Shown here one piece after another: positions 60,390 through 64,000 of a DNA stretch of 64,000 bases; the stretch's first letter is position 1; each line of letters starts with the position of its first letter. The stretch is from Tortispora ganteri (taxonomy: Eukaryota). The position numbers and the translations under genes are program-made. The stretch covers positions 310,001 through 374,000 of the forward strand of contig PPNB01000001.1 in assembly GCA_003707115.1 (NCBI GenBank). Direction: 5' to 3'. The notes below the pieces were generated by a model. It was given only the letters and a program-made list of their open reading frames with translations. It had not been told where the DNA came from and made no database searches.

Positions 60390-61271
60390 CTAGTTCCTCT
60401 TGTACACATCTCTAGCAGATGCCTGATGGTTAGGGAAGATCAATGCATTAGCAAAGACGATGTTCTCTCTACGCGAAGCAATAAAGACTATGTACTCAGC
60501 AATGTCTCTAGCCACGAGGGGTTCAGCACCCTCATAAACCTTTTTAGCCTTATCCGTATCTCCGCGGAATCGCACGATCGAGAACTCGGTCTCCACCTGA
60601 CCGGGGTCGACTTCCATGACACGGATTCTAGTGTCTATAGATTCTTTGCGCAACGACTCGGTAAATGATCTGATCGCAGCCTTAGTAGCGCAGTAGATGC
60701 TTCCACCAGGATAAGGATCGAGTCCGGCAATTGAACCGAGGTTAATTATATCACCTCGGTTACGAGCTCGCATGCCCTTGATAACAGCCTGAGTGAGGGC
60801 GATGAGACCAATAACATTGGTTGCAAACATAACATCGATATCAGCAGCCTGAATCTCGCCAACCTTCTCGACACCAAATACCATTCCGGCGTTGTTCACC
60901 AGAACATCTACCTCGCTGAACTCCTTGGGAAGGTTTTCGACAAAAGCAGGAATGTCACTGGTTTTGGTCATATCAAGAGCGCCAGTATGCACCTGAATAT
61001 TTGGAAATTTTTCCTTTAGTTCACCTCGGAGTTTATCGAGACGATCAACTCGGCGGGCAGTCAAGACCAACTTGATGTTGCCATTGGAGGTAATAGCGAA
61101 TTCTTTAGCAGTGGCCTCGCCAATGCCTGCAGAGGCACCGGTAATAAGCACAGTTTTGCCAGAAAGACGATCAGCAGCAGCAGTGCTAAATGATGACATG
61201 GTTCTGGAAATATTTCTGGTTGTAATAACGTGTGATAGTCTTTGTCGTACAAGTCCGAAAGCCCAGTTCAT
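60390..61271 (-). CDS. NADP-dependent 3-hydroxy acid dehydrogenase SDR (Ymr226c/YdfG-like); second ATG at 61199
   Basis: TGASAGIG, NNAG, YCATK, PGQVETEFS.VRFRGD, PNHQAS. Confidence 0.92.
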   Translation of the reverse strand: MNWAFGLVRQRLSHVITTRNISRTMSSFSTAAADRLSGKTVLITGASAGIGEATAKEFAITSNGNIKLVLTARRVDRLDKLRGELKEKFPNIQVHTGALDMTKTSDIPAFVENLPKEFSEVDVLVNNAGMVFGVEKVGEIQAADIDVMFATNVIGLIALTQAVIKGMRARNRGDIINLGSIAGLDPYPGGSIYCATKAAIRSFTESLRKESIDTRIRVMEVDPGQVETEFSIVRFRGDTDKAKKVYEGAEPLVARDIAEYIVFIASRRENIVFANALIFPNHQASARDVYKRN

Positions 61272-61511
61272 ACACTTAAAGAGCCGGGGCAGTTATCACT
61301 TATGTAGAGTGTTGAGTATTGTTTGATAGCCAATTCTAAGTGAATGGAAATCGGCAATTCTTAGGAACTGATGGTGAACGCAGTCTATTATCCTATAATA
61401 ATAGGCTATTATATATATGCAAGCGATAAGTTTTAAATCGTTAGTGGAAAAGTGGGGATGGTATGCAATAGCGGAACATGTTACCCGGATGTCGAGATCG
61501 TGGGGGCTTTT

Positions 61512-61678
61512 TGTTGGAGAACTACCTGGTTAGGGTAATGTGGCTTAGGGTTTTGAGCACAATGAGAGAAACTACGTGTAAGTAGGTGATGTATTAAAAA
61601 GAGGGGAAACCTTAACCTGTAGTACAATCTGAGCTAAAACCCTCTGCTACATTATCCTAACCAGGTAGATCTCCAACA
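61512..61678 (+). repeat. 167-bp LTR-like unit with its own ~47-bp imperfect terminal inverted repeat
   Basis: Starts TGTTGGAGA and ends TCTCCAACA; TATTAAAA inside; immediately followed by the PBS. Confidence 0.75.
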
Positions 61679-61692
61679 GGTTAAAAGCCGAA
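61679..61692 (+). other. Primer-binding site for a tRNA-Lys(UUU) half-molecule
   Basis: GGTTAAAAGCCGAA is the reverse complement of UUCGGCUUUUAACC, the anticodon arm of yeast tRNA-Lys(UUU) as recalled from memory. Confidence 0.7.
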
Positions 61693-61698
61693 ATATCA

Positions 61699-62364
61699 AT
61701 GACTGGAACTCGAGGACGTGGCCGTCGCAACATTCAAAGCGAAGTTTCAACTGGAACAAACAATGACAACATTAATATTTTAGAAGCCTCTAAGGTTTCT
61801 GAAGAAACCTCACGACCTTCTCAACCTATCTTGTTAACTCGTAAAGAAATTAATGATCTGTCCAACAACTCCGAGGAAATAAGGATTCTTGAAAGCATCA
61901 ACGCCGAGAAGTTAGCCAACTCAATAAGAAGCACATTGCAAACTGCTCTTTATGTCATTAAGAAACAATATGTTTTAGATGCTGAATCATATGGCGATGT
62001 CCATTTTCTGCTATCAAACATACTTGGCTGTGCTAATTCAAGCCAACATCCTTTCAAGATTTCCCGTTGGATAAAAGAGGAACCTTACCTGGAAGAACAT
62101 TCAATCATTAGCGCTACTGGCCTAAGACTTCCAAGAAATTGGCGATTTGTTGAACATAATGAAGCCAAATTAGTTCTTCTGGCAATTGTCACTCCAAGCT
62201 CCTTAAGGAAACATGTGAATCTCTTAGCTGGCAATCCTGAATATGCCGCTGAACTAGGCACAATTGGTAACCGTACTGCTCCAACTTTGCGTCAAATCAT
62301 GGAAAAAGTATACATGGACTACATGGATGCTTATGCCACAAGCGGCCAAGCTGCTGATGACTGA
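61699..62364 (+). CDS. Gag/capsid-like ORF of the element (221 aa)
   Basis: ATG 6 nt after the PBS; weak resemblance to copia gag helices (NEAKLVLLAIV..S...HV ... TA....IMEKVY); no zinc knuckle, no pol. Confidence 0.55.
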   Translation: MTGTRGRGRRNIQSEVSTGTNNDNINILEASKVSEETSRPSQPILLTRKEINDLSNNSEEIRILESINAEKLANSIRSTLQTALYVIKKQYVLDAESYGDVHFLLSNILGCANSSQHPFKISRWIKEEPYLEEHSIISATGLRLPRNWRFVEHNEAKLVLLAIVTPSSLRKHVNLLAGNPEYAAELGTIGNRTAPTLRQIMEKVYMDYMDAYATSGQAADD

Positions 62365-62878
62365 CTCAATCAAGCCATAGGCTTTTAGATTGACCACTCT
62401 AATACTTCACCTACTTACACGTAGTTTCTCTCATTGTGCTCAAAACCCTAACTACATTACCCTAACCAGGTAGTTCTCCAACACTTTTTTGCGGGGCAGT
62501 AAAATTCGTATTGGTGATGCAGGATTTGATCAGGAGTGGCTGTAATATTATACTATTGGGCTGGTCATTTGACCATGAATGATTCACATACATTAAGAGT
62601 TGCGGTACGACTCCTGCACCGAGTGTCCTGTGCTTGAACAAAGCGGCACTAAATACATTCAAGTATATGAACGTTTAGATCATATATGCAGATGAATTTA
62701 CATATCGTGAAGGTTGATATACATAAAAAAAATCATGTTGAAACATACCTAAAAAGCTTAAAGAAACGTTCCTGCCGTTAATTCCTGTTAACCCGCTGGG
62801 TGTTTTCTTTGCATACTTTATTGATATCTTCAAGCTCGACCCTACCCAAACTGCTACCCTGATTCTATTCAGGGCACT

Positions 62879-64000
62879 ATGACGTCCAAAAATGTCGTAA
62901 ATAATATGAAAGGTAAGTGTTTAACCCCCACGTACTTATTATTTTATCTTTTTGAGCATCCAAGGTCTAACAAATGCTAGGATTGGTTCAGTTTATCTCA
63001 GATTTGAGAAATTCTCGCGATTCTAGTTATGAGGAGAAGAGAATCAACGCTGAGCTAGCAAACATCCGCTCTAAATTTAAAGACTTATCTTTAAATGGGT
63101 ACCAAAAGAAGAAGTATGTATGTAAATTACTGTATATATATACTCTAGGGTACCCAATTGATTTTGGACATTTCGAGGCGGTGCAATTGCTCGGTTCGCA
63201 AAAGTACAGCGAAAAACAGATAGGATACCTTTTTATTAGCCTGATTCTGAACGAAAAAGACGATCTCACTAATTTGGTTATCAATTCGATAAAGAAAGAT
63301 TTACAAAGTCATCTTGAGGTTTATAATTGTTTGGCTCTGCATTGTGTGGCCAATATCGGCAGTGCCGAAATGGCCGTTGCTCTTTCTGAAGTAGTACAGC
63401 AATTACTCAACTCACATGTGACCAAACCATACGTGCGCAAGAAAGCAGCTCTTGCCCTTCTTAGACTCTACAATAAGGACTCTGCTATATATAAACCGGA
63501 AATGACCCATAGAATCTGTGCAATTTTGCAGGACGAAGACCTTGGCGTGGTTACTGCCGGTTGTTCTCTTATTGCTACAATGGCCGAGTCAAATCCTGTC
63601 GCATTCACAGAGGCCTATAACCCTGCTGTCCAGATTTTGTACGAACTTATAGTGAACGGAGACTGCCCGCACGAATATATCTATTACAATCTACCATCTC
63701 CTTGGCTGTCTGTCAAGCTACTCCAGCTGCTTCAGATCCTGCCCGCACCTGATGATTCTGTGCTCAGTAACAGATTGTCCGAGATTCTGCGCTATGTGTT
63801 TAGTAACTACACTGCAATGTGTTCTAATGTGCAACAAAGCAATGCGCAGAATGCTGTAGTATTTGAAGCCGTCAACCTCGTTATTCACATGAACTCAGAT
63901 CCATCTTTGCTGCATAAGTGTTATCAAACGTTAGGAAACTCTCTCAGTGCCCCTCTAATTAATTTCCAGTACGTTTCCTTGGAGGCAATGGCGTATCTGG
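62879..64000 (+). CDS. APL3: AP-2 adaptor alpha subunit, 5' part; exons 62879-62912 and 62981 onward
   Basis: 68-nt intron; MKG|LVQFISDLRN..EEKRINAELANIRSKFK..GYQKKKYVCKL.YIY.LG. Confidence 0.95.

What the first reader, a model, noticed from the sequence alone, without database searches (positions are those of the whole stretch)
61507..62488. LTR-retroelement 5' half closed by an inverted LTR end: a gag-only element with terminal inverted repeats and an intact TSD
Seen: CTTTT | 167-bp TG..CA unit | PBS | 221-codon ORF | 35-nt spacer | reverse complement of the first ~85 nt of the unit (2 substitutions, 1 indel) | CTTTT. Known: TG..CA ends and 5-bp TSDs are the signature of Ty1/copia integrase, but those elements end in a DIRECT LTR after pol and a polypurine tract; long TGT..ACA inverted repeats are instead typical of Ginger-type DNA transposons. 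Inference: the matched TSD implies this 972-bp form integrated as one unit. It is either a one-off aberrant cDNA/autointegration product or a member of an unrecognised non-autonomous family intermediate between LTR elements and TIR transposons.
Basis: partly seen in the sequence, partly recalled or inferred. Interest (0 to 1): 0.9.

Follow-up and report, generated by a model that had tools for sequence, protein, structure and literature searches.

The report
Misassembled-by-nature dead yeast retrotransposon copy
This is one dead, truncated copy of a small yeast LTR-retrotransposon family whose right end is an upside-down piece of its own left repeat, most likely a copying error during reverse transcription that was still inserted into the chromosome, and it is a curiosity rather than a new kind of mobile element.

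Summary
CTTTT (61507-61511) is followed by a 167-bp TG..CA unit, a 14-nt primer-binding-like site, a 221-codon ORF, 35 nt, the reverse complement of unit nt 1-85 (2 substitutions, 1 indel), then CTTTT again.

The "spacer" is not a spacer. Homology to the only relative, a 330-aa hypothetical protein of Tortispora caseinolytica, runs in frame through two stop codons to about 62406-62409. The ORF is therefore a truncated, decaying gag-like gene.

Contigs from two public run records show a dispersed multicopy family:
- The contig crossing the gag/inverted-LTR junction has single-copy depth.
- A 2x-depth paralogue contig reads past the breakpoint for another 1.2 kb of unaligned sequence; its first 30 letters translate like the relative's next residues.
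- The junction carries a 6-7-nt microhomology, TAATAC(T).

Best reading (about 0.65): a one-off aberrant reverse-transcription product. A nascent plus strand (LTR nt 1-85) switched onto gag, and integrase inserted the product using two U3-type ends. It was dead on arrival.

No evidence was found for a family intermediate between LTR and TIR elements. No pol-bearing partner could be looked for, because no genome is held. Interest is low to moderate.

The parts
61507..61511 (.). Left copy of the 5-bp target-site duplication, CTTTT
   Evidence: Read directly. It is identical to 62484-62488 and abuts the TG of the unit.
61512..61678 (+). Complete 167-bp LTR (TGTTGG...CCAACA). Its own ends are inverted repeats: 61512-61554 against 61636-61678, 43 nt, 88% complementary.
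   Evidence: Summed contig depth over 61510-61610 is about 1050 against about 85 for single-copy flanks, so the LTR is multicopy in the genome.
61679..61692 (+). Primer-binding-like site, GGTTAAAAGCCGAA, directly after the LTR's CA. Its reverse complement reads as the 5' stem strand, the loop (anticodon UUU) and the first 2 nt of the 3' strand of a tRNA-Lys(UUU) anticodon arm.
   Evidence: Sequence. The arm motif (this 14-mer reverse-complemented plus 3 nt that close the stem) lies inside a tRNA-Lys(ttt) gene in 21 of 38 metagenome loci scanned. The other 17 loci gave no tRNA call, and no other tRNA type was called. The host's own tRNA was not available.
61699..62364 (+). 221-codon ORF plus TGA. 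It corresponds to the N-terminal two thirds of a gag-like protein.
   Evidence: BLASTP gives 62% identity over all 221 residues to P0001, a 330-aa hypothetical protein of Tortispora caseinolytica. No Pfam family at E 0.1 or better.
62365..62406 (+). Homology to P0001 ends at residue 209 of 330.
   Evidence: tblastn of P0001 residues 1-209 aligns to 61699-62409 through the TGA at 62362 and the TAG at 62386 without a frame change.
62400..62406 (.). Junction microhomology TAATACT. These letters fit both the gag frame (..S-N-T) and the inverted LTR (nt 85-79).
   Evidence: The paralogue contig (record 7) aligns up to 62406, then continues with other sequence. Most other LTR copies carry A at 61590, which makes all 7 nt shared; this copy's left LTR has T there, leaving 6 nt shared (tables 3, 7, 8).
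62400..62483 (-). Inverted copy of LTR nt 1-85 (84 nt), ending ..CCAACA against the duplication
   Evidence: The last 28 nt match the inverted LTR start with 0 mismatches.
62484..62488 (.). Right copy of the 5-bp target-site duplication, CTTTT
   Evidence: Read directly. Contig record 8 runs from 62422 into the right flank with 0 differences at depth 84.4.

Best explanation
A dead-on-arrival insertion made from an aberrant reverse-transcription product of a small LTR-retrotransposon family, in a yeast very close to Tortispora caseinolytica.

Proposed steps (all inferred):
1. Plus-strand DNA was primed normally at the U3 boundary.
2. After copying about 85 nt of the LTR, its 3' end (..AGTATTA) left its template and annealed to the complementary TAATACT in gag RNA, which had not yet been copied.
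3. It was extended as minus-sense DNA back to the primer-binding site.
4. A second, complete plus-strand strong-stop DNA made the usual PBS-mediated transfer, and both strands were filled in.

The product was a blunt linear DNA: LTR, PBS, 5' 0.7 kb of gag, then inverted LTR nt 85-1. Both termini are chemically ordinary U3 ends (TG..CA). This family's two LTR ends are in any case near-identical inverted repeats.

The element's integrase inserted the DNA between two divergently oriented genes and made the 5-bp CTTTT duplication. With no 3' R/U5, no polypurine tract and no pol, the copy could not transpose again. It has since picked up stop codons.

Shown here: the anatomy, the truncation point, the microhomology, the multicopy family, and the 1x depth of the junction contig.
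For: **The right terminus is an inverted LTR start, not an LTR end.**
- The last 28 nt have 0 mismatches to the inverted start and 2 to the unit's own 3' end.
- Similarity to the inverted start runs for 85 nt. Direct similarity to the LTR's 3' end stops at about 50 nt with a much lower alignment score, 61 against 153.
- This terminus abuts an intact 5-bp duplication.
- An end of U3 type was therefore the integrating end.

**The internal joint is inside gag.** P0001 residues 1-209 of 330 align in frame up to 62409.

**Relatives read through the breakpoint.** Paralogue contig record 7 is 1545 nt long with depth 184, about 2 copies. It aligns over 62070-62406 and then continues for about 1.2 kb. 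By my own reading, the first 30 unaligned letters translate to residues resembling P0001's next residues (tables 7 and 8).

**The junction contig is single-copy.** Record 6 spans 62070-62436 with 0 differences at depth 77.7, against 84-85 for the flanks.

**Microhomology.** TAATAC(T) is shared by both partners at the joint.

**Both arms come from one LTR lineage.** Both carry G at 61585, where contigs carrying 734 of 977 depth units have C.

**Retroelement hallmarks.**
- A 14-nt site directly after the LTR is complementary to a tRNA-Lys(UUU) anticodon arm.
- Priming of this type is reported for copia (a 'half-tRNA') and for Ty5, which starts from a cut in the anticodon loop (passages of PMC5371799).

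**Integrase tolerance.** In vivo, Ty1 integrase inserted DNA fragments whose only likeness to Ty1 cDNA was terminal TG..CA, with 5-bp duplications (abstract and passages of PMC2939329).
Against: - No pol gene, polypurine tract or second direct LTR was seen for any member of the family. The retroelement nature rests on the LTR ends, the duplication, the PBS-like site and the position of the ORF.
- The ORF and P0001 match no Pfam family at E 0.1 or better and no solved structure. No fused gag-pol protein was found.
- The PBS match was tested against tRNA-Lys genes from metagenomes, not the host's own tRNA.
- Contigs drop rare variants, and one search showed only part of its tables (75 pieces and 85 differences not shown). 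A diverged second copy of the junction cannot be excluded.
- X1 and X2 give identical contig depths and may be one data set filed twice.
- The order of template switches cannot be told apart from a two-step route (see rivals).
- One contig with an 'opposite strands' joint, 61545 to 61672 at depth 76.1, is unexplained.
Confidence: 0.65

Rival explanations
1. Two-step version. A head-to-head (palindromic) snap-back cDNA dimer with two U3 ends was integrated. An asymmetric microhomology-mediated deletion across the unstable palindrome later removed everything from gag position about 62406 to inverted LTR nt 86.
For: It accounts for the same termini, the duplication and the 6-7-nt microhomology. 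By recalled knowledge, long palindromes are unstable in yeast.
Against: It needs an extra event and leaves no trace that distinguishes it. Nothing in the sequence, such as a remnant of inverted gag or PBS, requires it.
Confidence: 0.1
2. Post-integration rearrangement of a normal full-length element (5' LTR, gag, pol, 3' LTR) by chromosomal inversion, deletion or replication template switching.
For: Rearranged and truncated LTR elements are common. The LTR's own 43-nt inverted ends offer substrates for recombination. Microhomology at the joint also fits replication-based repair.
Against: The right terminus carries both diagnostic letters of the inverted LTR start to within 10 nt of the duplication: 0 of 28 mismatches, against 2 of 28 for the LTR's 3' end. 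It also continues as inverted LTR for 85 nt. A chromosomal event would have had to replace the 3' LTR end exactly at the element boundary without disturbing the duplication.
Confidence: 0.12
3. Member of a propagating non-autonomous family bounded by long TGT..ACA inverted repeats, either Ginger-like or moved in trans by a retrotransposon integrase.
For: Formally it has 84-85-nt terminal inverted repeats, TG..CA ends and a 5-bp duplication. Depth over the first 100 nt of the LTR (about 1050) exceeds that over the rest of the LTR (about 580). Extra inverted arms elsewhere could produce that, among other causes.
Against: The junction contig has 1x depth, and the 2x-depth paralogue contig shown at the breakpoint reads through it. 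The internal sequence is a broken gene cut at residue 209 of 330, not a defined non-autonomous unit. No transposase or integrase is present. By established knowledge, an integrase does not excise DNA, and the transcript would lack a 3' R for strand transfer.
Confidence: 0.05
4. Assembly artefact: a chimeric join of repeat copies in a short-read assembly.
For: No single listed contig spans the whole 972 bp. Records 6 and 8 overlap by only 15 nt inside a repeated arm. No long reads were available.
Against: All three boundaries are each bridged at single-copy depth with 0 differences inside the element. The arms carry private variants. The two unique flanks carry a matching 5-bp duplication, which a random chimera would give with a chance of about 1 in 1024. 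The read sets differ from the window at two flank positions (60930, 60975), so they may be independent of the window's assembly.
Confidence: 0.03

Closest known systems
Ty5 / copia-type LTR retrotransposons (Ty1/copia superfamily) of yeasts
   Same: - LTR with TGTTG..CAACA-type ends and a 5-bp target duplication.
- A short PBS directly after the LTR, complementary to a tRNA anticodon arm rather than the tRNA 3' end. Priming of this type is reported for copia and Ty5 (passages of PMC5371799).
- A gag-position ORF starting 20 nt after the LTR.
   Different: - The primer would be tRNA-Lys(UUU), not initiator tRNA-Met.
- The LTR is very short (167 bp) with unusually long inverted ends (43 nt).
- The gag-like protein matches no known Gag family.
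- No pol was seen.
- This copy ends in an inverted LTR fragment instead of a polypurine tract and a direct LTR.
Integrase-mediated insertion of non-standard DNA with TG..CA ends (Ty1 integrase, PMC2939329)
   Same: Linear DNA with only the terminal TG..CA was inserted in vivo with 5-bp duplications (abstract and passages). This is the step proposed here for a cDNA with two U3-type ends.
   Different: That was an experiment using transformed PCR fragments and overexpressed integrase. Here the substrate is a natural aberrant cDNA of the element itself.
Ginger-type DNA transposons
   Same: Long terminal inverted repeats beginning TGT.. and short target duplications.
   Different: - Ginger elements encode an integrase-like DDE transposase and occur as families with both arms equivalent.
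- Here there is no transposase.
- The left arm is part of a complete LTR followed by a PBS.
- The right arm is joined to a broken gene at a microhomology, and the contig crossing that joint has single-copy depth.
DIRS retrotransposons (inverted terminal repeats; listing and abstracts of PMC7192593 and PMC3950715)
   Same: A retroelement with inverted terminal repeats of unequal length and a gag-position ORF after the left repeat.
   Different: DIRS elements use a tyrosine recombinase. By recalled knowledge they make no target duplication and carry an internal complementary region. Here there is a 5-bp duplication and TG..CA ends, and the relative shown at the breakpoint reads through the joint.

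Membership tests
LTR retrotransposon (Ty1/copia-like, Ty5-type priming) | LTR bounded by TG..CA | tested here: met
   61512-61678 reads TGTTGG...CCAACA. It is multicopy in the genome.
LTR retrotransposon (Ty1/copia-like, Ty5-type priming) | Two LTRs in direct orientation | tested here: not met
   In this copy the right end is an inverted 84-nt LTR fragment. The state in relatives is unknown.
LTR retrotransposon (Ty1/copia-like, Ty5-type priming) | Short target-site duplication (5 bp for yeast Ty elements) | tested here: met
   CTTTT at 61507-61511 and at 62484-62488.
LTR retrotransposon (Ty1/copia-like, Ty5-type priming) | Primer-binding site complementary to a tRNA, directly 3' of the 5' LTR | tested here: met
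   61679-61692 is complementary to an anticodon-arm motif. That motif lies in tRNA-Lys(ttt) genes in 21 of 38 scanned loci, with no other tRNA type called. The host tRNA was not available, and no tRNA gene lies in the window.
LTR retrotransposon (Ty1/copia-like, Ty5-type priming) | Polypurine tract before the 3' LTR | tested here: not met
   The sequence before the right arm is gag coding sequence. There is no purine run at 62365-62399.
LTR retrotransposon (Ty1/copia-like, Ty5-type priming) | Gag (capsid) protein | tested here: inconclusive
   - No Pfam hit at E 0.1 or better for the ORF or P0001.
- No solved relative.
- The AlphaFold model has pLDDT 36 and shows only that the protein is mostly helical.
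- The Atlas feature search gives weak leads only: a TYA Gag cluster at 0.86, below the tool's 0.9 bar.
LTR retrotransposon (Ty1/copia-like, Ty5-type priming) | pol with protease, integrase, reverse transcriptase and RNase H, in this copy or in an autonomous partner | not testable with these tools
   It is absent from this copy. No genome is held. No fused gag-pol protein was found in the protein libraries. A 2x paralogue contig continues 1.2 kb past the breakpoint, but its sequence cannot be read.
Ginger / TIR DNA transposon | DDE transposase, or for a non-autonomous member several copies sharing both inverted ends | tested here: not met
   The only ORF is the truncated gag-like gene. The junction contig has 1x depth, and the paralogue contig shown at the breakpoint reads through it. 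This is contig evidence only, and one search's tables were cut.
DIRS retrotransposon | Tyrosine recombinase and insertion without a target duplication | tested here: not met
   A 5-bp duplication is present. There is no recombinase ORF.

The most novel reading that the evidence does not exclude
In this family the two LTR ends are near-identical 43-nt inverted repeats, so cDNAs ending in two U3-type arms would be fully competent for integration. The copy seen here could then be one of several products of a recurrent plus-strand switch near LTR nt 85. That would be a natural route by which an LTR retrotransposon sheds TIR-bounded, gag-only units. The higher contig depth over the first 100 nt of the LTR than over the rest (about 1050 against about 580) would fit further inverted arms elsewhere in the genome.
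Probability: 0.07. Interest if true: 0.6.

Novelty: new variant of a known kind. Interest (0 to 1): 0.25.

Why it matters
If the reading is right, this is a clean natural record of two things usually shown only in experiments. First, reverse transcription can misdirect plus-strand strong-stop DNA onto an internal site by a 6-7-nt match. Second, an integrase will insert a cDNA whose two ends are both of U3 type.

It also flags a retrotransposon family in Tortispora yeasts for which my searches found no description. That family has three unusual traits:
- a 167-bp LTR with 43-nt inverted ends;
- a PBS matching the anticodon arm of tRNA-Lys(UUU);
- a gag-like protein with no detectable relatives outside the genus.

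It does not bear on the origin of TIR transposons unless further copies with the same architecture are found.

Tried and rejected
**Genome and other copies**
- A whole-genome search for other copies was not possible, because no genome is held for this window.
- The window itself holds no other copy of the LTR or the gag-like gene.
- No tRNA gene lies in the window.
- Earlier notes of this scan gave nothing by place, sequence or words.

**Protein searches for the ORF and P0001**
- Pfam and PHROGs gave nothing usable.
- The near-length search gave only P0001.
- The full HMMER scan of 1.84 billion representatives gave 2 hits at E up to 0.001: P0001 and one spurious repeat protein, P0002.
- The 'longer' search for fused gag-pol forms gave none, which the tool rates as weak evidence.
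- A profile search against PDB sequences gave none.

**Structure**
- The AlphaFold2 model of P0001 built from a 2-row alignment has pLDDT 35.9. No fold search was run on it, because a model that poor gives meaningless matches.
- The ESM Atlas gave only sub-threshold leads, and its own model has pTM 0.38.

**RNA and expression**
- Rfam over 61200-62800 gave no match at E up to 1.
- No RNA holder was listed among the sequencing runs.

**Organism**
- Exact look-up found 0 of 4 window proteins in the collection.
- The neighbouring dehydrogenase is 96% identical to a T. caseinolytica protein.

**Mechanisms considered and dropped**
- Autointegration was rejected because the internal joint is not at an LTR terminus.
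- An intramolecular snap-back of the elongating plus strand on its own LTR uses the same microhomology. It leaves the right end without a partner strand, so the intermolecular switch is preferred.

**Literature**
- Two searches for Tortispora transposable elements returned no paper whose title or abstract concerns them.
- Three searches for comparable inverted-LTR insertions found none. For these only listings and abstracts were seen.

**Empty site**
Full report
**What is in the sequence**

The window is gene-dense yeast-like DNA (33 ATG ORFs of at least 150 aa; 41% G+C, no N). The element lies between two divergently oriented genes: a short-chain dehydrogenase gene ending its ORF at 61271 on the minus strand, and an ORF starting at 62974 on the plus strand.

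| Part | Coordinates |
|---|---|
| CTTTT | 61507-61511 |
| 167-bp unit, TGTTGG...CCAACA | 61512-61678 |
| GGTTAAAAGCCGAA | 61679-61692 |
| ORF of 221 codons plus TGA | 61699-62364 |
| 35 nt | 62365-62399 |
| 84-nt reverse complement of unit nt 1-85 | 62400-62483 |
| CTTTT | 62484-62488 |

- The two arms differ by 2 substitutions and 1 single-base indel. blastn gives 96.5% identity, E = 4.9e-34.
- The terminal 28-mer occurs only inside this element in the window: 3 matches, 0 expected in 100 shuffles.

First, the 167-bp unit has long inverted ends of its own: 61512-61554 and 61636-61678 are 43 nt long and 88% complementary.
- The right terminus of the element therefore resembles both the inverted LTR start and, more weakly, a direct LTR end.
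- It is the former. The last 28 nt show 0 mismatches to the inverted start and 2 to the unit's own 3' end.
- The inverted match runs for 85 nt, whereas the direct match stops after about 50 nt (alignment scores 153 against 61).

Second, the 35-nt "spacer" is coding sequence that has decayed.
- The only real relative of the ORF in 5.8 billion clustered proteins and 1.84 billion representatives is P0001.
- P0001 is a 330-aa hypothetical protein of Tortispora caseinolytica NRRL Y-17796. BLASTP gives 62% identity over the whole ORF.
- The second hit, P0002, is a repetitive artefact.
- tblastn of P0001 against the window aligns residues 1-209 to 61699-62409, in one frame, through the TGA at 62362 and a TAG at 62386.
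- The gene is thus cut at about residue 209 of 330, exactly where the inverted arm begins.

**Host**

- 0 of 4 window proteins are in the protein collection letter for letter.
- The neighbouring dehydrogenase is 96% identical to a T. caseinolytica protein, and the next best hits are at 55-67%.
- The window therefore comes from a very close relative or another strain of that yeast.
- P0001, at 62% identity, is a diverged member of the same element family rather than the orthologue of this copy.

**Family and copy number**

No genome is held. I therefore laid the Logan contigs of the two run records that hold the stretch on 60500-63500 at 80% likeness. The two records give identical contig depths and may be one data set filed twice. 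Both differ from the window at 60930 and 60975.

- Flanks have depth 84-85.
- Summed depth is about 1050 over 61510-61610, about 580 over the rest of the LTR, and 285-764 over the ORF.
- Related sequence of at least 80% identity is therefore present in several copies. Depth suggests roughly ten LTR equivalents and three to six gene copies besides this one. The tool warns that summed depth is not a copy number.
- Loose ends before 61530 in 3 contigs show other LTR starts with different flanks.

Three contigs matter most.
- Record 6 (367 nt, 0 differences, depth 77.7) spans 62070-62436. It crosses the gag-to-inverted-LTR joint at single-copy depth.
- Record 7 (1545 nt, depth 184, 44 differences and 13 gaps) aligns over 62070-62406 and then continues for about 1.2 kb with other sequence. 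By my own translation, its first 30 letters read T-R-I-A-V-D-E-A-V-E, which resembles P0001's next residues, T-L-R-G-V-S-E-A-V-Y.
- Records 1 and 8 bridge the left and right ends into unique flanks, with 63 and 62 letters inside the element.

The shown relative reads through the breakpoint, and the contig crossing the joint has single-copy depth. One search printed only part of its tables (75 pieces and 85 differences not shown), and contigs drop rare variants. A diverged second copy of the joint is not excluded.

**The joint**

The letters TAATACT (62400-62406) fit both partners.
- They continue the gag frame (S-N-T), and record 7 aligns up to 62406.
- They are also the complement of LTR nt 79-85.
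- This copy's left LTR has T at 61590. Other family copies mostly carry A there (734 of 817 depth units), as does the right arm, which makes the shared stretch 7 nt. Counting only this copy's left LTR it is 6 nt.
- Both arms share G at 61585, where most other copies have C (734 of 977). The two arms therefore come from one LTR lineage.

**Retroelement hallmarks**

The 14 nt directly after the LTR, reverse-complemented, read as the 5' strand of a 5-bp stem, a 7-nt loop (pyrimidine, U, UUU, A, A) and 2 nt of the return strand. That is a canonical anticodon arm with anticodon UUU.
- I scanned the metagenome collection for this motif closed by three more stem letters. It returned 119 stretches, of which 80 were listed.
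- Of the 38 loci I passed to ARAGORN, 21 hold a tRNA-Lys(ttt) gene over the motif. The other 17 hold no tRNA call, and none holds another tRNA.
- Priming from inside the tRNA is reported for copia (a "half-tRNA") and for Ty5, which starts from a cut in the anticodon loop of initiator tRNA-Met (passages of PMC5371799).
- The host's own tRNA could not be checked, and no tRNA gene lies in the window.

The "gag" label is positional.
- No Pfam, PHROG or PDB relative was found.
- The AlphaFold model is unusable at pLDDT 36, although mostly helical.
- The Atlas gives only sub-threshold leads, including a Ty Gag (TYA) cluster at 0.86.
- No pol was seen. No fused gag-pol protein exists in the libraries searched.

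**Mechanism (inferred)**

The right terminus is a true U3-type end lying against an intact duplication, so it was an end of the DNA that integrase inserted. The internal joint lies at LTR nt about 78-85 and inside gag, with microhomology, so it was not made by integrase. The simplest route is one wrong template switch during plus-strand synthesis.

1. Plus-strand DNA was primed at the U3 boundary.
2. After about 85 nt it annealed by ..AGTATTA to TAATACT in gag RNA that had not yet been copied.
3. It was extended to the PBS.
4. That chimeric strand then accepted a normal plus-strand strong-stop DNA through the PBS, and both strands were completed.

The blunt product is exactly the 972-bp unit. 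Ty1 integrase is reported to insert DNA fragments that share only the terminal TG..CA with Ty1 cDNA, with 5-bp duplications, in vivo (abstract and passages of PMC2939329). Here the two natural LTR ends are near-identical anyway. The copy lacks a 3' R/U5, a polypurine tract and pol, so it was dead on arrival. The two stop codons and the 2-3% divergence between the arms show some age.

**Rivals**

- A palindromic snap-back dimer followed by an asymmetric deletion gives the same result in two steps (0.10).
- A chromosomal rearrangement of a normal element would have to replace the 3' LTR end exactly at the boundary (0.12).
- A propagating TIR-like family is contradicted by the 1x junction contig and the read-through paralogue (0.05).
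- A misassembly is unlikely given three bridged boundaries and a matching duplication on unique flanks, but no long read or single contig spans everything (0.03).
- Autointegration is rejected because the joint is not at an LTR terminus.

**Comparison and verdict**

The element works like, and most likely derives from, a Ty5/copia-style LTR retrotransposon. This copy fails the defining features of two direct LTRs and a polypurine tract, and pol is untested. It is not a Ginger or DIRS element: it has no transposase or recombinase, and a duplication is present.

I found no paper on Tortispora transposable elements and none describing a comparable insertion. For those searches only listings and abstracts were seen.

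Interest is 0.25.

One item stays unexplained: a 1x contig with an "opposite strands" joint between 61545 and 61672.

Noticed in passing
window 61512-61554 and 61636-61678: The 167-bp LTR has 43-nt inverted ends that are 88% complementary. By recalled knowledge this is far longer than the few-nucleotide inverted termini usual for yeast LTRs. It may explain why a cDNA with two U3-type ends could be integrated.
   Followed up: partly
window 60930 and 60975: Both run records read G where the window has A, at full depth (85.2 and 83), inside the dehydrogenase ORF. Either the window's assembly has errors there, or it comes from a slightly different strain than the reads.
   Followed up: no
window 61545 / 61672: One contig of depth 76.1 shows an 'opposite strands' joint between these places (table 5). 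It may be another LTR copy aligned across the LTR's own inverted ends, or another rearranged copy. It could not be resolved without the contig sequence.
   Followed up: no
window 62227-62298: This copy has 24 in-frame codons (HVNLLAGNPEYAAELGTIGNRTAP) that P0001 lacks. Two paralogue contigs skip 95 and 140 nt in the same area. This part of the gag-like gene therefore varies in length across the family.
   Followed up: partly
runs X1 and X2: The two run records, filed under different studies and years, give identical depths for many contigs (248.9, 93.8, 82.7, 77.7). They are probably one data set filed twice and are not independent support.
   Followed up: no
P0001 (Tortispora caseinolytica, 330 aa): The gag-like protein family appears confined to this yeast genus. 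There was 1 real hit in 1.84 billion representatives, and the protein ends in a basic tail (KRKRGRSNRKH). It is annotated as a stand-alone hypothetical protein. Whether it sits in a full element is unknown.
   Followed up: partly
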